Shown here piece by piece: positions 3,680-29,994 of a stretch of 64,000 nt of DNA. This DNA is from a virus (lineage: Duplodnaviria; Caudoviricetes). Position numbers and translations under genes: made by a program. Under the pieces are notes generated by a model, which worked only from the letters and a program-made list of their open reading frames with translations, was not told where the DNA came from and ran no database searches. The stretch is from positions 64,001 to 128,000 of IMG/VR virus record IMGVR_UViG_3300031867_000005, one strand, 5' to 3'. Numbering within the stretch: position 1 is the first letter of the stretch; each line of letters starts with the position of its first letter.

Positions 3680-5656
3680 AGTAAATCATCAAAACTAACA
3701 TTTTTCAATTGCTCCTTTCTATCATTCTCATCACCAAAAGCCTTTGCAACTTCATCGAGAAGTGAAACTTCTTCTTCCTGAGAAGAAAAACGTTCAATTA
3801 AATCTTGTTCCATTTCATCTGAAACAATTCCGTCATTATATAATGATTCTAAGTCAATCATTTCTTGAGATTTTTCTTGGATAAAATCGACAACTTGAAA
3901 GTCTTGGACTTCTTCAAGTGATGGGGTTGTGACAAATAAGTCATATCTGCGGCAAACTCCTAAATCTACTTTAGACCATATTCTCACTTGATTCCAGCGG
4001 CCCCGTCTATTTTTAAAGATGTCTGTTACACAGTTTGGAGCAAAACTAAAAACTTTTTGAAACCCCGCAACGGTTTTTAATTCTTCGGGAGATGGTCGTG
4101 ACATTATACAAGCTAGGTCTACCAAATCCACGATTGCTCTTGCGTTAAATCCTACCATTTCTAGTAGGAACTGACTATTTTTTAACTTCACAAAGAAGCC
4201 ATACCCATTTCGATTCTCATTAGCTTCGTTTCCTAAAACTAAGACACGTATTAATAGTGTCTCTACTCCCAGCATCTCAGCACAGGGATAGTCGATACAG
4301 GTTATTATTTTATTAAAATAATCTTCCCACGAGATTACCATATCTATTACAGACTTAGGTTTCCTCGTTAGCTCACTATTCTAGTGAACCCCCATTCATA
4401 AAATGGGAAAAGGCATGATAAGGCCAATTTGACCCTCGTATTTGATGAAAATCTCGGAATCCATCGCCATCGTCATTACTAATTTGAGTTGAAGTCAATA
4501 TAAAAGAATTAAGTTCAACAGCTAAGTTTTTTAAAGTTGTGGTAAACATTCTAAGTGTAACATCTTCTCTGATCTTCAAATCCCTATACTCATTAAGCAT
4601 AGCTGGAGAAGAAAAGATATAATCATAGAAGAAATTCTCTACTCCATGCTACAAGTTGTATCTCCTAAAAAGGTTCTTTATAATCGAACTACAAGGGTCA
4701 GGAATTTGAGCAGTTAAGAAATTATCCTTATATCTCTCCATTATATCCACTGCTTTATTAATTCTCTCCATATGCTACGGACCGTAAGTTCCATATAAAA
4801 AAATCTCTTCATTATAGCCTGTTAAGTAAGCTAAAATCATTGTTTGGATTTCTTCTGGATCTTGTTCAGTCATTATATATAAAACTTTTTCAGGAGTTCC
4901 TGTAGCAATCCATTTATTATATCTAGGTTCATATCTAATCGGATAAGCAATATTACAGGCGTCGCCGACCATTGAACGAGTCTTTCCCATTCCGCTTGAC
5001 CCTGACCGAAGATAAAGTTTTCCTTTTCTACCGCCTCTACAAATTGTATTAAAAATATCTCCTTGTAATCTAACTCCAACCTCTGGGGCAGATTGTAAAT
5101 TCTTAATTAAATCCCTAACCCCATCATAGGCTGTTCCTTCTTTCATTACAGAATTGATTACATATTTTCCTTCAAGGCTAGCAATTTCTCCCTTAAACAA
5201 ATTCAAAATTTCTTCTGTCGTCATTTTTTCGAACTTATCGTTAATCGCAAAATGATCATCGTCTAAGGGGTCTTCAGAATAAATATTGGAGATATTATAA
5301 CCAGACTTTTGAAGTTCTCTTAGTAAATTAATTTTCTTAAATTTTTTATAATAATAAGAGAAATTACTCGATTCACTATATGTTTCACAATCAATTAAAA
5401 ATTGTTTTCCATTCTCTCTTTCTAGAATATTTTTTGCTACTTCATTTTCAGATAAATAAGTTTCCACATCATTTGCATGGATTTTTTCTGCACCACCTAC
5501 ATATAAATTATATATCGCAGAAAAGATAAATTTATCAAGAGGTTGCGAAAAATCGCTAGGTTCAATTTGATATTTGTCAATGTCACTTAATAACTCAGGT
5601 CTAAGCATCAGGCCGCCAAAGATTTGAACTATAGTCTTTCTATCAACACTAATCAT
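3676..5656 (-). CDS. dnaB: DnaB-like replicative helicase; exons 5656-4432 and 4142-3676; TAG=Gln at 4775 and 4649
   Basis: Walker A GSSGMGKT, FYDYI, TSTQI; splicing restores IRGS-RAIVDLVD. Confidence 0.85.
4143..4431 (-). mobile_element. Group I intron (289 nt, no ORF) in dnaB
   Basis: Exon ends GGGU; P1 GGGUCA-AAU-UGGCCU with U.G at splice site; P7 GACUA/UAGUC; terminal G; frame restored. Confidence 0.85.
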
Positions 5657-6375
5657 TCAATCGTATCCCCTAACTGACTGAGGTCAATCATCTTTTTATT
5701 TTTCTTTTTGCCTATATAATCAGCAGGATTATACCTGATTTCAATTCTGTCTTGCTCCAGTTGCTTCTAAATCATTTTTGTGATTTCATCTGCTTTTTTA
5801 GCCTGATTTTCATAGTAGTGTTTTGATTCAGAAAATATAAAAGGAATGATCCCGATACTGCCGTTAGACTTTTTTATTGTGTTTCTCTTTACTTCATAAA
5901 AATATTTTAAAGCTAACAGTTGCCCACGATATGGCATCCCTTGGCTTCTAAACTTCTGCATTTGAGTCACATTCCAATCGCTAACAGGTTTATCTTTTGA
6001 GTATTCTCCAAACAATCTATAAATATAAAACCAAAGTGCGTCCCTATCATTCTTTTCATTCTTAACTAATTCTAAGTTTTCTTCTGATAAATGCCTCTTT
6101 ACTGTGCTAGCAGAAATACCTAACTCTTTTGCGACCTTACTCATATTTTTATATTCACTATATCTCTTATTTATTTCTTCAACTAGTTCGTCTGTTACTT
6201 TAATCCTTTTTTTCTTTTCTTTCTCCGTATGAGGGGCCGCTTCATATAAATTTAAGTATTTTGTGACAGTAGCAACTGAAATTCCTAATTCTTCTGCTAC
6301 TTTCTTCTTTACACCTAATTCACAGTATAAAAGAAGGATTTTCTTAATCATTTCTTCGTCAATTTTTCTTGCCAT
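5653..6375 (-). CDS. Tandem-HTH DNA-binding protein; TAG=Gln at 5767
   Basis: Two VAxELGISxxTV HTH motifs; readthrough ends at TGA overlapping dnaB ATG (ATGA). Confidence 0.75.
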
Positions 6376-6464
6376 TTTTATCACCCTTTCTTTTATTCTA
6401 TAAATATTATATCATATCTTATTTAAAATGTCAATAAAATAGACAGCAATTTTATTTTGCTGTC

Positions 6465-14156: not shown

Positions 14157-16353
14157 TCAATCATCTAAATCTTCAAAATTTGCATTTTCAAAAATATAAT
14201 TGCGTCTTTCTTCTATATTTTCTCCTAATAAAATATCAAAATACTTTTCTGCGGCCTCAGCATCATTCATAGTGAACTGAATTAGACGGGGTTCTTTTGA
14301 ACAGATAGTTGCCCTAAAATCTTGCGGAGTGCTTTCTCCCAAACCTTTCAATCTGGATATATCACCCTTAGGCAAGGACTTCAGTTCTTCTTCATTATAA
14401 GCATAATAGCACTTCCCCTTTGATTCAACCTTAAAGAGAGGGGTTGCACCCCAATAAACTTTTCCAGCTTGAATAAGTTGAGGATAGAACTTATATAAAA
14501 AAGTTAAAATCAAGCAATTGATGGAGAACCCGTCCTTATCCATGTCTGCGACCAAAACAATTTTCCCATATCTTAATTTCTTTAGATTGAAGTTAGGTCC
14601 ATATCCGCACCCCAAAGCTATGTGAAGCTGTTTTACCTCTTCATTCTTAGCAAGCTTCTCTTTATCATTTTTAAGGGCATTGATTAACTTACCTCTTAAA
14701 TCGAAGCAGGCGGTAGTCATAGCATCTCTTGCTTTTACGATCGCACCCTTGGCCGACTTTCCTTCTACGACGAAAAGCATTGAATTTTCATCATGCTTTC
14801 TACAGTCAACTAATTTTTCAGCTAAAACTACTTTCTTTTTAAGTTCCTTTTCAATCTCCTTATTCTGTTGCAAAATTGCCTGTCTTACCTTATCAGCTGC
14901 TTTTTCTGCTTTCTGGAATTTCTTCATCACCTCAATAACTCCAGAAAAATCAGGAGTATGAGAAAAGTCTTCCAATCCCTCTTTAAAGGCCGCAGAAGCA
15001 AGAGTCCTAAGATTTGCGTTGTTAATCTTCGATTTTGTCTGGTTAGAGAAAGATGGATTTGCAACCTTACAGTTGATCGCATAGACTAAACCCTTACGAA
15101 TCAAATCTGGGTCAAAATCTTGTCCACTTAATCTTTTAATTGTGTTGGTAATAGCAGTCTTAGCTCCTGTAATGGGAGATCCACCCTCAGGCACGACTAA
15201 CCCGTTGACAAAAACGTAAGATTTCTCTTGGCCACCAGTCCAAATGAAAGCAATTTCAATTTCATCAGAATCATCTTTCTTTGAAACAATAATTGGAGCT
15301 TTCATCATTGGCTTACTAAGCTTTTCAGCAATAAAGTCAGCAATACCATTCTTTGAGTAAAATTCCTGTCTTTTTCCAGAAACAGTTTCTACAACAAATT
15401 TAATTCCTTTATTTAGATAGGCAATGTTCTTAATTTCTTCACAAATTCTATCATAAGAAAATCCTTCCGTCATATTCTTGAAAACCTCTTTGTCTGGTTG
15501 AAACATTACATATGTGCCAGTTCCATTTGTAGGGCCGGCTTCTTTTTCAAAAGTTTTAATATCTGTTTCTGAGTAGTTTTCTAAGTTACCTTCGAAGAAA
15601 GAAGCCTCGGCAACTTTTCCATCTCTGAAACTTCTTACCATGAAGTGCTTAGAACTCATACATACTGCAGTGCCACCAATCTTTTGTGTTCAGTAGAGGT
15701 CGCTACTCTCTACTCGGGACTATTACCCAGCTTATAGTTTCCTATAAGAACAGACTATATCTTCTTAGACTCCTTTTTCGGTTCGCTTGAACCTAATTAC
15801 TCAAACACTACAAGTGTTCTTTCAATAGTCGTTGAACGTTCATCAATTAACTTGATGCTTCGCTGCGGGTTATCCAATCCTTAATAATTTTTACCATACC
15901 TCGGTCATTACCCTCGCCATGATAATATTGCTACTATCATTTGGTTATTAAGGCTCTAAGGATTTTCCCGACAATTTAAGAGTTTTTACAACGGCTATGG
16001 TGTTAACCGTTTAAACCTGAACTATTTTTATAAGCATTTTTATCAAACTTACCGCCAGTATGAGCTTCGGTATAAATGGCAACAAGTATATTTCGACCGT
16101 CAATAATGCCAAAAGGCACGCCACGACCTAAATCAGACACTTCAACAGTACTATCTTCCTCATTTAATCTAACTCGAATTTCCTTACCATACCCAGCTAA
16201 CGCCTCGTCTGTTGAGTTATTAATAATTTCTTTTAAAGCCTGATAAATGCCCTCCGTATCATCTGAGCCGAGATACATGGGAACTCTACTTCTTATGGCC
16301 TCTCTGGTTTCAAGGTGTTGGATATTCTCTGCACTATACTTACTTTCAGCCAT
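14157..16353 (-). CDS. gyrB: DNA gyrase/topoisomerase IV subunit B; exons 16353-16006 and 15680-14157
   Basis: EIINNSTDE, DLGRGVP, HTGGKF, spliced SGLNG-IGGTAV, VEGKSA, DMDKDG, RLKGLGE. Confidence 0.92.
15681..16005 (-). mobile_element. Group I intron (325 nt, no ORF) in gyrB
   Basis: P1 AACGGU/GCCGUU; CAACGACUA and AAGAUAUAGUCU core; terminal G; core resembles the phoH intron. Confidence 0.9.
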
Positions 16354-23759: not shown

Positions 23760-23859
23760 TTGCTAAAGATTTAAATTGGAGCGACGAAGTCGCCAGCCTG
23801 CTTCTGCGCTGCTGCAGAAGCCTTTCTTTGATTACTTTCTTTTGGGAAAAGAAAGTAAT
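23760..23859 (+). other. Three-hairpin element, copy 1
   Basis: GCGAC-GAA-GTCGC; GCTTCTGC-GCTGCT-GCAGAAGC; TTACTTTCTTTT-GGG-AAAAGAAAGTAA; covarying homolog at 62433-62529. Confidence 0.8.
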
Positions 23860-23866
23860 ACTATAT

Positions 23867-23974
23867 GATAGGAAAAATTTCACGAATCGGTAGGAAAAAT
23901 TTCACGAATCGGTAGGAAAAATTTCCTGGAACGATAGGGAAAATTCCACGAACGATAGGAAAAATTTTCGCACC
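23867..23974 (+). repeat. Iteron-like array 1: five 21-22 bp direct repeats
   Basis: Consensus G(A/G)TAGGAAAAATTTCACGAA(T)C, periods 22,22,22,21; inverted partial copy at 23993-24005. Confidence 0.9.
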
Positions 23975-24052
23975 ATTTTTTTTGAAGTTTTTTTCGTGGA
24001 ATTTTACTTATATAATGGCGAAAGCCAGAAAAAATAAAAAGGAGGAATTTTC

Positions 24053-24904
24053 ATGACAAGAACAAATCCAAAATAGGCCGCACCAATGCCTAAAAAAGAA
24101 TCGTCAATTACAGATAATCCAATGAGGTTATATACTTATTTAGTCTGTATTTCAGGATTAGCTGACTACCCAGATAATACAAGAATGTTCAGACAGAAAG
24201 ATTTAACTTTAACTAGAATACAAGAAACAACTGGAATAACTCCAAAAACAGCAAAACTCTATCTTTATTGTCTTGAATAGAATGGGTTAATTAAATATCG
24301 TGGTGATACATCTTTTAATTTTGTCGATGAAACAGTTTTTGAGAAGAAAACTGAATTAAGAAAAGCGAAACAAGATGAAGCAAGTAGAATCTGGAAATAT
24401 AGAAATAAATATGAGAAGACTGGTGTTTATCATATACCTCGACCCATCCCCTATACGCCTGTCCCAGAAATTACATTAGAAAGATTAAATAATGAGTTTA
24501 ACATAAATGAATTGGAATTAAAAATATATTTATTATGTTGTTCTTATAGAGATACTTGTGTTAATGAAAATAGAAGTTTTAAGGTATTAACTTTTGAAAA
24601 AATTAGAGATACTATAAAAATGACCCTGGATGCAAAAAATAACGCAGCAATTAGAGGAGCACTTGCTTTTCTTTATGGAGTTGGACTGATTGATTATACT
24701 GAAGGTGCTATAGATAATAGAAAAGGTGGTAAGATACCATGTTTTAAATTAAAGGAAGTTTACTACTATATTTCAGATAAAAATAGAAATGTTGATTTTA
24801 CTGGATAGGAAGAAGAGAAAGATAGCGTTTTTAAGGAAATTTAGGAACGTATAGAAAATGGTTTTTATAAAATTGAGAATCTAGAAAATAACATTAAAAT
24901 CTAA
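24053..24904 (+). CDS. Tandem winged-helix protein, putative replication initiator (Rep-like) 1; 4 TAG=Gln
   Basis: RBS AGGAGG; LYTYL...TTGITPKTA...LE[Q]NGLI and KIYLL...LAFLYGVGLI; follows iterons; paralog at 62728. Confidence 0.6.
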
Positions 24905-24971: not shown

Positions 24972-25034
24972 TCATTCAATTTGACTAAAATCACAATCTT
25001 CTGCCTTTTTATCCTCTCTCCAATTCACAATCTT
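24972..25034 (-). pseudogene. Displaced original 3' end of the DNA ligase gene
   Basis: KIVNWREDKKAEDCDFSQIE* aligns without gaps to the ligase end KFIQERPEKNYIDCDFSQISGE*. Confidence 0.8.
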
Positions 25035-25897
25035 TAGATTGAATTTATTAAATTCTATAAGTATTCTTCATTAATTTTCTTGTAATCAGTATAAGGAATT
25101 TCAAAGAGAATATATTTTTTTTCTTTACAGTATTTTCTTTTTATTTCATCATTTTTTAATTGTCTTTCAAATCTTTCTTTACCGCCTGGAAAACCTGTTG
25201 ACTCATAATGCTATTGACCCTAATATTCAATAAAAATTTGAAAATCAGGAAGATAAAAATCAAAAAATAAAGGGAAATTACGGTAACTGTGTAAATCATT
25301 TGGAGAATATTGCTCTTGATAATTTATCGCCATTTCTTTTAAACAATGGCATATCAACTGTTCTCCTTTTGATTTTTTGATGCATCCGCAAGAAAAAGTC
25401 TTGTTTTTTATTAAATTACTATAACTAATAATCTATCTCTTTCCACAGCTACACTCACAAAGCCAATAAGAGTTCCTCTAATCTTTTTTCTTATCACTTT
25501 TCTGTATAACTCTCCAATGACCATATATATTACCTGATAAATCTCCTGTCCTATAAAAATGATTTAAAGATATGTTATATTTCTTCGCAATATTATCAAT
25601 TATATAATTACAATTAGTTGAATTTTTCTAATATCCAAAATTCTCTAAAGCTTCTTTATAACTAGTGGAATTCTATAAAATAGAGATAATTTCATCATCT
25701 GAAAAATTCTACCATTTCTATTTAGAACCTTTTATCAACTTAGATATATCTATATTATATTTATTAGCTATTTCTTCTAATATAGAAGTTTTCACTGTTT
25801 CGGCATATCCTAATTTTAGGATTACTTCTTTATAAGTTTTACTTGTATTTATTATTGAAATAATTTCTTCTCTAGAAAAGCGTTCATATTTTTTCAT
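25034..25897 (-). CDS. Free-standing putative homing endonuclease (Zn-ribbon + Vsr-like PD-(D/E)XK), 287 aa; 9 TAG=Gln
   Basis: Duplicated N-terminal FS.EEIISI...SYKE..GY unit, WLCECSCG...SCGC, KSKGE, FDFY, IEY[Q]GQ[Q]HY. Confidence 0.8.
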
Positions 25898-25956: not shown

Positions 25957-27093
25957 TTATTCTCCAGAAATTTGGGAAAAGTCGCAATCTATATAATTTT
26001 TTTCTGGTCGTTCTTGTATGAATTTTGCATGGCGCAAAGAATAATTCTCATCAATTTTTTCTATTTCCATGCAAGTAATTTCATAAACTTTATTAATGTA
26101 TTTTTCTGGATGACGGACTATTCCCTCTCGCATTTCATCGGGGATTCCTGAAATATATCCAATATGAAAAGGCTTTCCATTTTTCATAACTGAAATTGAT
26201 ACTGCTGCAGCACGCTCATAAAAATAGTTTTTAGTTACTGGTTCCCATGGCATACCCATACTGTATTCAAAATACATATTTTTATTTTCTTTTTCACCCG
26301 TTTTAATATTTTCGTAATATTGCCAATTTTTAATTTCCTTACCATTATAAAGTCTAGTTGGAAGTTTGTAGCCGCCATCAAGAAAGGCATCAATTGTTTG
26401 TTCGATTTCCATTTTAACTTTAAGAGTTTTTCTAGCAGTTCTCTTCCCCGGTTCTGGCTTACTGTCATTACGAGTTATGACGATACCCTCGCCACCAGAA
26501 CTTAAAGTTTCTCCGAGTAAATTCCAGAGTTCTTCACCCTTAAGATACTTAGCAAACTCAACATAAGGATTGGTTCTTTCTTCTTTAAATCGCTTTTCTA
26601 ATTCTCCAATAAACTCAAAGCGTTTTTCCGCAGTCGTATTAAGAAAAGATTTTCCATTATAAGACCATACATCAAAGATATAATAACTTAATTTTTCTCC
26701 TTTTTCTTGTCTAATAATAGCCTTATCCATAAGACACCCCAGAATTGTTGTCACTTTTCTAGAACCTCTTTGATTCGGAAAGTAAAGTTCTCCCAAAAGA
26801 CAAGTCCCATTAGGAAGCCAATCAAAGAGAGATTTAAGTTGCGGCACCCATTCGTGTTTATCAAGATACTCTCCATTTACAGACTTACTTCTTCCTTGCA
26901 TTCTGATATTACCATCTTCGTCTTTGATAAGACGACAGTAATGTCCATCTTGTTTAAGACTCCCAGAAAAAATACCAGATAAGATGAAGTTTTTAGTCTC
27001 TGCTTTTGCGTCTCCTTTGTAAGTTTTGGGGAAAGACCAATACTTTTCAGCAGGAAGTTCTGTAAATGAAATTCCATCAATATATCCTCTCAT
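25957..27093 (-). CDS. ATP-dependent DNA ligase
   Basis: KQDG, GELY, YIFDV, EGIV, LKVK, SLRH motifs. Confidence 0.85.
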   Translation of the reverse strand: MRGYIDGISFTELPAEKYWSFPKTYKGDAKAETKNFILSGIFSGSLKQDGHYCRLIKDEDGNIRMQGRSKSVNGEYLDKHEWVPQLKSLFDWLPNGTCLLGELYFPNQRGSRKVTTILGCLMDKAIIRQEKGEKLSYYIFDVWSYNGKSFLNTTAEKRFEFIGELEKRFKEERTNPYVEFAKYLKGEELWNLLGETLSSGGEGIVITRNDSKPEPGKRTARKTLKVKMEIEQTIDAFLDGGYKLPTRLYNGKEIKNWQYYENIKTGEKENKNMYFEYSMGMPWEPVTKNYFYERAAAVSISVMKNGKPFHIGYISGIPDEMREGIVRHPEKYINKVYEITCMEIEKIDENYSLRHAKFIQERPEKNYIDCDFSQISGE

Positions 27094-28007
27094 AATAATT
27101 CCTCCTTAATAATATCTTTATCTGTTATTTGTCCTTTAATTATAATTAAAGGAATATTGTTCTTTTTACAATATTCTTTTTTTAAATTATCTCGCCATTG
27201 CCTGTCTTTAAAATCTTCTTCTCCTCCATAATATTTTATGGGATAGAAATGCTATTCTCCTTGATACTCTATTAAATAGCATAATTTATCATCTTTAAAA
27301 ATGGCAAAATCAAATCTTAGAGGGTGTTTCTTCCCTCTTAAATCAGAAAAAGAATATTCTTTAATATAACTTATATCATTTTGTATTAAAATTTTTTCTA
27401 TTTCTTTTTCATATGAAGACTTTAAACACCCACAACTTTTAACGTTGCCATTTCGTATCAGACTGCCATTTTTAACACAATCTTTTCCACATAATAGACA
27501 CTTACAATTCCAATATGCGTGTTTTTTCTCAGCAGTTACTTTTTCATTTAAAGACAATATTTTTAAATAATTATAAGTTTCACCAGACATATCAATTAAA
27601 TGAGTATCTCTAATTCTCTCTTTATTATAGCATCCGCAAGATTGAGTTTTCTTTGAAATTAATTGTCCTGCTGCTACAATTGTCTTATTTCCACATTTAC
27701 ACTGACAATTCCAAAATAAATCTCCATGAGAATGTTTTCTAGTTTCTTCTTCATTAATTGAAATTGCAGTTAAATAGCCAAAGGTTTGATTAGAAAGATC
27801 TTGTCCTCTTACTTTTCGCATTGTTTCTTTCTATAAACATCCACAAGACTATGTTGCACCACTTTTTAAATGGTCTATTCTTATTTCTTTTTGATTACCA
27901 CATTCACATTCACATAAATAATAAGTTTGATTATTTTTTCTTATTCTATGACTTATAACATGTAATCTACCAAAATAAGAATCATAATAATCCACTCATT
28001 TTCCCAT
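27090..28007 (-). CDS. Free-standing putative homing endonuclease with three Cys-rich repeats + PD-(D/E)XK; 3 TAG=Gln; TGA at codon 4
   Basis: CxCxCG...SCGC x3, LRFDF, IEYQGE[Q]HF; ends ATGA-overlapping the ligase start. Confidence 0.75.
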
Positions 28008-29094: not shown

Positions 29095-29994
29095 TCAAAT
29101 CTCTCCTAAAATCTCATATTTTCTTTTATCATACTCCCAATTCCCAAAAAAGTCAATATGAAAACCATATTGTTGTCTTAAATTAGAAGGTATTATATAA
29201 TTATTTATATTATCTTCTTGTGGTAAGTTAGCCCAATTCTGTAGACTAAAAAGAAAATTAATATCATCTAAAAGCTAAGGCTTTTCCTTTTCATAATAAT
29301 AGAAAACTAATCCTTTATAGTCTTCAATCTATCTAAGTAACTCTTGGTCTTCTTCAATTTTTCCAGTCAATTTAATTAATGCTAAATTATTAATATGTAA
29401 TAAAAAATAATTATCGCCCCATTCATTATTTTTTCCATTTAAAAACTTCACAAAGGAGACAATTTTTTCATCATTAAACTAAATTTTGTCTTTTTTTAAA
29501 TATCCAATATGATAAAAAATCTATGAAGTTTGAATCTACTCAGGGGTAAAATCTATAAGAGGTTTCCAAGTAGGACATAGGAAATTCTTAAATTTTTTCT
29601 TATCATCTATTACATTATATAGAGGATTAACTGGCTATACAATTATACACTATTTTTTTCTTTGAAGAGAATTAGTCTTTAAAATACTAATTCTTTTATC
29701 TTTACCTAAATATTTTTTAGTATTAAGAGTTTTTCCTAATATATAAATTTGAAAATTGAACTAACAAATTGCCTAAATATTTTTTAATATTTTATAACAA
29801 ATTAAACTCAACAGGTCATCCTTATAATCAATAATAAAAATACGTTCGGAACAGTTTTGAAATTGAAATTCAAAATTATTCATTTTTCTGTTAATTAACC
29901 AATTTGTTTGTTCTTCAATAGACCAATTTTTATTGGGATAATATTTTAAATTTAAATCGTATAGAACCAATTTTCGTTTTGCTTCAACGAGCAT
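29095..29994 (-). CDS. Hypothetical protein, 299 aa; about 9 TAG=Gln
   Basis: RBS GAGGTG; readthrough ends at TGA directly before kinase ATG. Confidence 0.75.

What the first reader, a model, noticed from the sequence alone, without database searches (positions are those of the whole stretch)
23760..24904. Twice-present cassette: three covarying hairpins + five iterons + tandem winged-helix gene (copy 1; copy 2 at 62433-63411)
Seen: two loci 39 kb apart share TTGCTAAA, a 5-bp GAA-loop hairpin (GCGAC/GTCGC vs GCCAT/ATGGC), an 8-bp hairpin with identical GCTGCT loop and a T-A to C-G compensatory change, and a third A/T hairpin. Each is followed by five direct repeats with periods 22,22,22,21, an inverted partial repeat near the gene start, and a homologous two-wHTH protein. 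The repeat sequences are unrelated between loci. Known: 21-22 bp iterons, an inverted operator and tandem winged helices typify Rep_3 plasmid replicons; GNA-loop hairpin clusters act as ssDNA priming signals (phage G4 origin). Inference: this phage carries two independent, specificity-diverged origins with a shared structural loading signal, or a selfish mobile origin family. This is my best candidate for an undescribed system.
Basis: partly seen in the sequence, partly recalled or inferred. Interest (0 to 1): 0.85.

Follow-up and report, generated by a model that had tools for sequence, protein, structure and literature searches.

The report
Six iteron-initiator cassettes in one phage
A 179-kb rumen phage carries six, not two, plasmid-style modules that each look like a replication origin with its own initiator. 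All six share one conserved hairpin-forming DNA element, but no experiment yet shows that they start replication.

Summary
The window is part of a 178,685-bp phage genome that reads TAG as Gln. The cassette occurs six times in it, always on the + strand; two copies lie in the window.

Each cassette has four parts:
- a ~100-nt element of three hairpins;
- five 21-22-bp direct repeats that differ between cassettes;
- a promoter region holding an inverted partial repeat;
- a 227-283-aa gene for a protein with two winged-helix domains.

Sixteen of 17 related loci from other phage contigs have the same layout. Hairpins 1 and 2 covary strongly. Hairpin 1 mostly has a G-N-A three-base loop on the + strand, a motif known from single-stranded-DNA priming signals. 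The element is nearly identical within a genome, whereas proteins and repeats group by type across genomes.

The proteins belong to an uncharacterised family with no Rep_3 sequence match. The only whole-length structural matches are iteron-binding initiators (RctB, Pi), with middling scores.

My best reading (about 0.5) is iteron-type origins with cognate initiators plus a shared loading or priming signal. Rivals are self-regulated transcription factors with an RNA leader, homing-linked selfish cassettes, and competition decoys.

This is a new variant of a known kind. The scan has noted similar origin-like cassettes in other phages.

The parts
23760..23767 (+). Cassette 1: conserved TTGCTAAA box, 5' of the hairpins
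   Evidence: Present in four of six copies as TTGCTAAA, with variants TTGCTCTA and TTTCTAAA. Similar CTAAAGAT-like boxes occur in related loci.
23781..23793 (+). Cassette 1 hairpin 1: GCGAC-GAA-GTCGC, a G-N-A three-base loop
   Evidence: Folds. Four of its five pairs show changes on both sides in alignment A6.
23800..23821 (+). Cassette 1 hairpin 2: GC-rich stem followed by CTTTCTTT; terminator-like
   Evidence: Seven of eight pairs show changes on both sides.
23831..23859 (+). Cassette 1 hairpin 3: 13-bp A/T-rich stem with the conserved TTAC...GTAA core
   Evidence: I2, 100% complementary. The stem is conserved in 21 of 23 cassettes and the loop is 3-14 nt. The least stable duplex lies at its 3' junction.
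23867..23975 (+). Cassette 1: five direct repeats (iterons), spaced 22, 22, 22, 21 bp
   Evidence: D2; TRF score 139.
23993..24011 (+). Cassette 1: inverted partial repeat in the promoter region of the gene; operator-like
   Evidence: I1: 19 nt, 89% complementary to repeat 4.
24053..24904 (+). Cassette 1 gene: 283 aa, four in-frame TAG codons read as Gln, two winged-helix domains
   Evidence: AlphaFold2, pLDDT 79.
62373..62402 (+). Cassette 2: strong sigma-70-type promoter (TTGACT-18-TATAAT) just upstream of the element
   Evidence: 11 of 12 matches. The same promoter precedes cassette 3 but is not seen before cassettes 1 and 4-6.
62433..62529 (+). Cassette 2 element: TTGCTAAA box, hairpin 1 (62453-62465), hairpin 2 (62476-62497), hairpin 3 (62506-62529)
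62535..62643 (+). Cassette 2: five direct repeats, spaced 22, 22, 21, 22 bp
   Evidence: D1; TRF score 146.
62634..62670 (+). Cassette 2: inverted copies of the repeat core TGAACA before the gene
   Evidence: I4, I5.
62728..63411 (+). Cassette 2 gene: 227 aa, three TAG codons read as Gln, two winged-helix domains
   Evidence: (pLDDT 80, pTM 0.79).

Best explanation
Each cassette is an iteron-type replication-origin module with three working parts.

1. **Initiator and repeats.** The protein with two winged-helix domains binds its own five repeats. These are spaced two helical turns apart, so all sites face the same side of the DNA.
2. **Self-regulation.** The protein also binds the inverted partial repeat in its own promoter and represses itself.
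3. **Melting and loading.** Binding melts the easily opened TA-rich junction between the repeats and hairpin 3. The exposed + strand folds into hairpins 1-3. Hairpin 1 is a very stable G-N-A DNA mini-hairpin. This shared element is the entry or priming signal for the phage's common DnaB-like helicase and DnaG-like primase.

Shown: the anatomy, the covariation, the fold, the conservation pattern and the placement.

Inferred: DNA binding by the protein, melting, priming, and any origin activity.
For: - **Number and spread.** There are six cassettes of identical layout, all on the + strand. The same layout occurs in 16 of 17 related loci. Four related near-complete genomes each carry one to three copies.
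- **Repeat geometry.** Spacing is 21-22 bp, with an inverted copy in the promoter.
- **Protein fold.** Two winged-helix domains are predicted. The only ~170-residue, two-domain structural matches are the iteron-binding initiators RctB (Z 7.2) and Pi bound to iteron DNA (Z 6.8). RepE also appears in Foldseek.
- **Hairpin covariation.** Eleven of 13 pairs show changes on both sides. 88% of cells are paired, against 54% or less when the partner is slid.
- **G-N-A loops.** Loops are GAA, GTA or GCA on the + strand in seven phage lineages, with exact GCGAAGC in three loci. Such mini-hairpins occur at the phage G4 priming site and in RSF1010 ssiA, which is read by the RepB' primase (PMC13037366).
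- **Genome-specific element.** Element sequence follows the genome: copies 2 and 3 are nearly identical, and so are L010 and L019 from one contig. Proteins and repeats follow type across genomes. This fits one shared trans-acting factor per genome.
- **Co-variation of repeats and proteins.** Repeat similarity tracks protein similarity (Mantel p about 0.0008).
- **Melting point.** The least stable 30-mer sits at the junction of hairpin 3 and the repeats in all six copies.
- **Genomic setting.** Cassette 1 lies among NrdD, DNA ligase and RNase H genes, about 5 kb from the strand-switch and skew minimum. The genome encodes DnaB-like and DnaG-like proteins. Only three initiator or loader families were searched for: Rep_3 and DnaD/DnaB_2 domains gave no match, and the DnaB-like helicase was found. 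A multi-HTH ORF beside the helicase remains unassigned.
Against: - There is no sequence match to Rep_3 or any other initiator family; only generic HTH hits appear.
- Structural scores are middling: Z about 7, and Foldseek E > 0.001.
- No plasmid homologues were found.
- No DnaA boxes are present.
- Hairpin 2 plus its T-run also fits an intrinsic terminator, and copies 2 and 3 have a strong upstream promoter. The element could therefore act as RNA.
- All six genes need TAG read-through. The DnaB-like helicase gene also has three TAG codons, so this is weak evidence.
- Six orthogonal initiators are not obviously needed by a lytic phage.
- Cassette positions vary between relatives, as for accessory genes.
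- Distant homologues in Enterococcus phages lack repeats.
- GC skew follows gene orientation, so it cannot locate origins.
Confidence: 0.5

Rival explanations
1. The cassettes are self-regulated transcription-factor units. The protein binds the repeats as an operator array. The conserved element acts as RNA, either as a ~95-nt small RNA or as a 5' leader with an attenuator or terminator (hairpin 2 plus a U-run) that insulates or gates expression.
For: - Hairpin 2 scores as a terminator in five of six copies.
- Copies 2 and 3 have a promoter matching 11 of 12 consensus positions, placed to start about 25 nt before the TTGCTAAA box.
- Only generic regulator-type HTH matches are found.
- Winged-helix regulators of the OmpR/PhoB type also bind direct repeats (my own knowledge).
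Against: - No promoter is conserved upstream of cassettes 1 and 4-6 or in relatives.
- At cassette 1 the upstream gene diverges, so there is nothing to terminate.
- In four lineages the T-run lies 5-7 nt from the stem, which is poor for termination.
- G-N-A three-base loops favour DNA over RNA (PMC13037366, PMC3201870).
- No Rfam family matches.
- Five phased sites upstream of the promoter are unusual for simple self-repression.
Confidence: 0.2
2. The cassettes are selfish, mobile DNA linked to homing endonucleases. The winged-helix protein is a long-site DNA-binding module for targeting or immunity. The conserved element serves as a recombination or landing homology that spreads and homogenises the cassettes.
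For: - Ten of 54 diverse family members carry an N-terminal GIY-YIG nuclease domain (L017, L040 and L041).
- Cassette 1 plus an adjacent endonuclease-like ORF is an insertion relative to genome G002, where the ligase gene and the next gene are adjacent.
- Different cassette types occupy the same syntenic slot in different genomes.
- The element is homogenised within genomes.
Against: - The six proteins here have no nuclease domain.
- Homing does not explain five phased repeats, the self-operator, or selection for hairpin structure with G-N-A loops.
- Every related near-complete genome examined keeps at least one cassette, which suggests a needed function.
Confidence: 0.12
3. The cassettes are weapons in competition between phages. 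The extra repeat arrays and binding proteins titrate or block the initiators and origins of co-infecting relatives, in the manner of plasmid incompatibility, and are not used for the phage's own replication.
For: - One genome holds many orthogonal specificities, each with closer relatives in other phages than within the genome.
- L007 has an orphan element-plus-repeat array with no gene.
Against: - There is no direct evidence.
- This reading still requires the cassettes to be true origins in some phage.
- A conserved hairpin element would not be needed for a decoy.
Confidence: 0.08

Closest known systems
Iteron plasmid origins with Rep_3-type initiators (F ori2/RepE, R6K/Pi, pPS10 RepA; lactococcal theta replicons with 22-bp repeats)
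   Same: Both have direct repeats of about 22 bp next to the initiator gene, an inverted copy in its promoter for self-repression, and an easily melted tract on the far side of the repeats. The protein has two winged-helix domains, and its only whole-length structural matches include Pi bound to iteron DNA.
   Different: There is no Rep_3 sequence match, no DnaA boxes and no plasmid homologues. The cassettes sit in a lytic-type phage genome in six orthogonal copies, and a covarying three-hairpin element stands where plasmids usually have DnaA boxes and 13-mers.
IncQ plasmid RSF1010 oriV (repeats + AT-rich tract + ssiA/ssiB hairpins read by the RepB' primase) and the phage G4 complementary-strand origin
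   Same: Both combine initiator-binding repeats with strand-specific hairpin signals that contain a G-N-A mini-hairpin (CCGAAGG in ssiA; GCGAAGC or C-GAA-G here). These hairpins are proposed to act once the DNA is single-stranded (PMC13037366).
   Different: All hairpins here are on one strand and on one side of the repeats. The phage primase is a divergent DnaG type, not RepB'. No priming has been shown.
Phage T4 multiple origins, especially oriE with its direct repeats and RepEB
   Same: T4 is also a large phage genome with several origins, some near points where transcription switches strand. One of them has evenly spaced direct repeats beside a small rep gene. T4 origins use a promoter, an unwinding element and RNase H, and this phage has an RNase H gene near cassette 1 (PMC3016281).
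   Different: T4 origins share no common motif, and its repeats are 12 nt with no proven role. Here six units share one element, and each has its own binding protein.
Archaeal chromosomes with several origins, each specified by an adjacent orc1/cdc6 gene (Sulfolobus, Haloarcula)
   Same: Both have several origin-initiator pairs of distinct specificity on one chromosome, thought to have been captured from mobile elements (my own knowledge, not checked here).
   Different: The protein family differs (AAA+ with one winged helix), as do the repeat type and the domain of life.
ScpB (the label of PHROG 3396)
   Same: Both have a fold of two winged-helix domains. Protein 2 matches PHROG 3396 at E 8e-7, and ScpB is the top Foldseek hit.
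   Different: The ScpB matches have TM-scores of 0.22-0.32 and E > 0.001. ScpB works with ScpA and SMC and is not known to bind phased repeats. I take the label to reflect the shared fold only.

Membership tests
Rep_3 / RepE-Pi-type iteron initiators (Pfam PF01051) | Sequence match to the Rep_3 N-terminal domain profile | tested here: not met
   There is no PF01051 hit for either protein even at E 10. No match occurs anywhere in the genome at E <= 1, and none among 54 diverse family members.
Rep_3 / RepE-Pi-type iteron initiators | Two winged-helix domains in tandem | tested here: met
   AlphaFold2 models have pLDDT 79 and 80. Matches covering 170 residues are RctB domains 2-3 (Z 7.2) and Pi with iteron DNA (Z 6.8). 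The scores are middling.
Iteron-type origin (functional class) | Phased direct repeats next to the initiator gene, plus an inverted copy in its promoter | tested here: met
   for all six cassettes; for relatives.
Iteron-type origin (functional class) | The protein binds the repeats, and the locus starts replication | not testable with these tools
   This needs EMSA or footprinting and replication assays. Public reads were available only as contigs, so no copy-number profile could be made.
G4-type / ssiA-type single-stranded DNA priming signal | Strand-specific stable hairpins that include a G-N-A mini-hairpin | tested here: met
   The motif definition comes from PMC13037366.
G4-type / ssiA-type single-stranded DNA priming signal | Primer synthesis by a primase on the folded strand | not testable with these tools
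   A divergent DnaG-like gene exists.
Small RNA gene / intrinsic terminator | An upstream promoter plus a GC stem directly followed by a U-run | tested here: inconclusive
   The terminator pattern is found in five of six copies, but a promoter only at copies 2 and 3. In four related lineages a 5-7-nt spacer separates stem and T-run. RNA contigs did not cover the element, which is uninformative.
Any Rfam family | Covariance-model match | tested here: not met
   Nothing reaches the gathering threshold. In permissive mode the best hit has E 0.097, far below its gathering score.
Type III toxin-antitoxin (ToxIN-like) | The order promoter, tandem RNA repeats, terminator, then an endoribonuclease gene | tested here: not met
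   Here the terminator-like hairpin comes before the repeats, a separate promoter lies after them, and the protein has a winged-helix fold.
Lambda O / ori-lambda type | The repeats lie inside the initiator gene | tested here: not met
   The repeats lie upstream of the gene in all cassettes.

The most novel reading that the evidence does not exclude
This phage chromosome is a multi-origin replicon built by capturing mobile origin cassettes. It holds six orthogonal initiator-repeat pairs. All six are plugged into one genome-specific hairpin 'adaptor', kept uniform within the genome, that the phage's own primase or helicase reads on single-stranded DNA. This would be a two-layer origin code, with private recognition and shared loading. 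Relatives of the initiator have been re-used as the DNA-targeting arm of GIY-YIG homing nucleases.
Probability: 0.3. Interest if true: 0.8.

Novelty: new variant of a known kind. Interest (0 to 1): 0.62.

Why it matters
Replication origins of large uncultured phages are almost unknown. If these cassettes are origins, three things follow.

- **A compact test set.** One genome would supply six natural, mutually orthogonal initiator-repeat pairs built on a common scaffold. That allows direct study of how winged-helix initiators read DNA and how specificity evolves.
- **A candidate loading signal.** The conserved element would be a defined candidate for a helicase or primase loading signal in phages of Gram-positive gut bacteria.
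- **Timing of replication.** The need for TAG read-through would tie origin firing to the phage's switch of genetic code.

The same protein fold fused to GIY-YIG nucleases also suggests a link between origin modules and homing elements. If the cassettes turn out to be regulators, the conserved covarying element is still an undescribed structured motif.

Tried and rejected
- **Rfam.** Gathering and permissive searches gave no family for the element.
- **Pfam, PHROGs and PDB by sequence.** Only generic HTH matches and a 'ScpB' label appeared.
- **ESM Atlas features.** The nearest clusters are unnamed or generic HTH clusters.
- **Plasmid collection.** No protein match.
- **GenBank phages.** The only matches are distant Enterococcus phage homologues with no repeats or element upstream.
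- **Exact pattern of hairpin 2 in viral contigs.** No match.
- **Hairpin 3 pattern in 185k species genomes.** It returned 120 hits, but none carried the gene and the matches cover only hairpin 3. These look like generic A/T hairpins and give no evidence of host or plasmid carriage. A stricter hairpin 3 pattern missed known copies and was dropped.
- **Public reads.** One bovine-gut metatranscriptome holds parts of the region, but only as contigs. None covers the element, so nothing can be said about its transcription, RNA ends or DNA copy number.
- **Complex prediction.** I did not try it any other way.
- **Wobble pairs.** They could not tell which strand folds. One G-T and one C-A at stem ends point in opposite directions.
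- **GC skew.** It tracks gene orientation and cannot place an origin.
- **Type III toxin-antitoxin and lambda-O-type layouts.** Both were considered and rejected on part order and protein fold.
- **nut/boxA-boxB-like antitermination site.** This was considered only from memory: TGCTCT in copy 5 and a 5-bp stem with a purine loop. It was not pursued because nothing here could test it.

Full report
**What the window is.** The window is bases 64,001-128,000 of a 178,685-bp IMG/VR phage record rated complete. The genome has 31% G+C. Long frames open only when TAG is read as an amino acid. DNA and RNA runs that hold the region come from bovine gut samples.

**Checking the observation.** Both loci exist as described.
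- A 139-column alignment of the two non-coding elements is 83% identical.
- As single-stranded DNA, each copy folds into the same three hairpins, with z-scores of -3.5 to -5.3 against dinucleotide shuffles.
- Copy 1 has five repeats spaced 22, 22, 22, 21 bp. Copy 2 has five spaced 22, 22, 21, 22 bp. Each gene is preceded by an inverted partial repeat.

The main correction is number. A pattern search and a profile search of the whole genome find six copies of the element, all on the + strand. They start at genome positions 87,742, 126,415, 129,387, 162,162, 163,365 and 164,688. Each is followed by five 21-22-bp repeats of its own sequence, a short promoter region and a gene of 227-283 aa with one to five in-frame TAG codons.

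**The proteins.**
- Five of the six are clear paralogues, at 30-33% identity to protein 2.
- Protein 1 shows no BLASTP similarity to them. Three results still link it to them. A profile comparison aligns the C-terminal halves (86% probability, E 4.6e-6). One gene in a related genome is hit by both profiles. Both AlphaFold2 models show two winged-helix domains in tandem (pLDDT 79 and 80).
- Pfam, PHROGs, PDB sequence search and the ESM Atlas give only generic HTH matches and a 'ScpB' label.
- There is no Rep_3 match in the proteins, in the genome, or in 54 diverse relatives.
- In the wide structural search, single-domain regulator hits lead at Z about 8. The only matches that span both domains (170 residues) are RctB domains 2-3 (Z 7.2) and Pi bound to iteron DNA (Z 6.8). 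RepE also appears weakly in Foldseek. These scores allow 'works like' but not 'is a member of'.
- The family has 335 clusters at 50% identity, all unnamed. Ten of 54 sampled members carry an N-terminal GIY-YIG nuclease domain.

**Comparative anatomy of the cassette.** Seventeen loci from other phage contigs were fetched through the two protein families. Sixteen have the element at the same distance upstream of the gene and on the same strand. Related loci also carry their own repeat arrays.

The layout is constant in 21 of 23 cassettes examined:
1. one or two GC-rich hairpins;
2. a T-run;
3. hairpin 3, with the conserved arms TTACTYTTT / AAARAGTAA and a loop of 3-14 nt;
4. a TA-rich junction;
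5. the repeats.

Hairpin 3 shows compensating variants: TTGC/GCAA in L007 and ATAC/GTAT in L041. For hairpins 1 and 2, 11 of 13 pairs show changes on both sides. 88% of cells are paired, against 54% or less with the partner slid, and no shuffle of 500 reaches the observed value. Structure in a single strand is therefore under selection.

**Which strand folds, and is it DNA or RNA?**
- In seven phage lineages the loop of hairpin 1 reads G-N-A on the + strand (GAA, GTA, GCA), usually closed by C-G. Three loci contain exact GCGAAGC.
- A 2026 review describes GCGNAGC as an exceptionally stable DNA mini-hairpin. It is found at the phage G4 priming site, in RSF1010 ssiA (read by the RepB' primase) and in phage N4 hairpin promoters (PMC13037366). 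This favours a + strand single-stranded DNA signal.
- Against that, hairpin 2 with its T-run passes a terminator scan in five of six copies, and copies 2 and 3 have a near-consensus promoter just upstream.
- That RNA reading is weakened in three ways. Promoters are missing at the other copies and in relatives. At cassette 1 the upstream gene diverges, so there is nothing to terminate. In four lineages a 5-7-nt gap separates the stem from the T-run.
- Public RNA data were only contigs and did not cover the element, so they say nothing.

**A new point: two layers of conservation.**
- Element sequence follows the genome. Copies 2 and 3 are almost identical although their proteins are 33% identical. 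Two cassettes of different protein type on one contig (L010 and L019) have nearly the same element. The two tandem elements in L007 are duplicates.
- Proteins and repeats follow type across genomes. Protein 2 is 73% identical to the L007 protein and protein 3 is 60% identical to the L011 protein, and repeat similarity tracks protein similarity (Mantel p about 0.0008). Shared descent of neighbouring DNA could produce part of this correlation.
- The pattern fits private recognition (protein with its repeats) combined with a shared partner encoded once per genome. Frequent gene conversion between the elements would give the same pattern.
- Most repeats share an AAATTT-like core between variable flanks. 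This suits two winged helices reading two major grooves.

**Genomic setting.**
- Cassette 1 is a lone + strand unit inside a - strand block that holds NrdD, ATP-dependent DNA ligase and RNase H. It lies about 5 kb from the strand switch and the skew minimum at about 94 kb.
- The genome has a DnaB-like helicase gene with three TAG codons and a weak DnaG-like primase match. It has no Rep_3 or DnaD-type domain.
- In all six cassettes the least stable 30-mer lies at the junction of hairpin 3 and the repeats. No DnaA boxes are present.
- Four related near-complete genomes each have one to three cassettes.
- Positions differ between relatives. In G002 and G003 a type-1 cassette sits where G000 has cassette 3. 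Cassette 1 plus an endonuclease-like ORF is an insertion relative to G002. Orientation relative to the ligase gene also differs.
- L007 has an orphan element with six 23-bp repeats and no gene.

**Interpretation.** The best-supported model is an iteron-type origin with its cognate initiator, joined to a shared single-stranded-DNA loading or priming signal. The closest layouts are Rep_3 plasmid origins and RSF1010 oriV. The closest biology is the multi-origin genome of T4 (PMC3016281). I put this at about 0.5, because no data here show binding, melting, priming or replication, and because the proteins fail the sequence test for every known initiator family.

The rivals, in order:
1. self-regulated transcription factors with an RNA leader or terminator (0.2);
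2. homing-linked selfish cassettes (0.12);
3. incompatibility-type competition decoys (0.08).

**Novelty.** The parts are familiar, and this scan has already noted origin-like repeat cassettes in other phages. The new features are:
- six orthogonal units in one genome;
- a covarying three-hairpin element kept uniform within each genome;
- an uncharacterised protein family with two winged-helix domains;
- fusion of that fold to GIY-YIG nucleases.

I class it as a new variant of a known kind.

Noticed in passing
G000 positions 129387-130412, 162162-163154, 163365-164363 and 164688-165678 (outside the window; loci L005, L006): Four further cassettes of the same design. Three stand in tandem at 162-166 kb. 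Their intergenic DNA is full of G-rich words such as AAGGGG and GAGGGG spaced about 20-25 bp apart.
   Followed up: partly
L007:2369-2600: A related phage has an orphan copy of the hairpin element followed by six 23-bp repeats but no gene. It sits directly upstream of a complete cassette.
   Followed up: partly
L017:600-1565; L040:3001-3972; L041:3001-4035: Members of the same protein family are fused to an N-terminal GIY-YIG nuclease domain (10 of 54 sampled clusters). In L041 the fusion gene lies directly after a normal cassette, beside the RNase H and ligase genes.
   Followed up: partly
window 23685, 62234 and 12 other genome sites: The octamer GCGGCCGC occurs 14 times in this 31% G+C genome, against 0.06 expected. 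GGCCGC occurs 48 times against 2.5 expected. One copy lies about 57 nt upstream of cassette 1, and some lie in Ala-Ala-Ala coding stretches.
   Followed up: no
window 15731-16015 (-): A group I intron is found at Rfam gathering level (64.5 bits).
   Followed up: no
window 25034-25897 (-), 27090-27995 (-), 29095-29994 (-): ORFs rich in TAG codons (three to nine each) lie between replication genes. One matches DUF2726. The others share its C-terminal nuclease-like motif by eye. They look like free-standing homing endonuclease genes flanking cassette 1.
   Followed up: no
window 5653-6384 (-): A 243-aa protein with several HTH motifs (HTH_7, HTH_8, NUMOD1-like) is encoded directly beside the DnaB-like helicase gene. 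It is another possible origin-binding or homing-related protein.
   Followed up: no
window 62347-62383 and L006:5318-5357: The upstream terminator stem carries the -35 box (TTGACT) of the next promoter in its 3' arm. This arrangement is repeated before cassettes 2 and 3.
   Followed up: no
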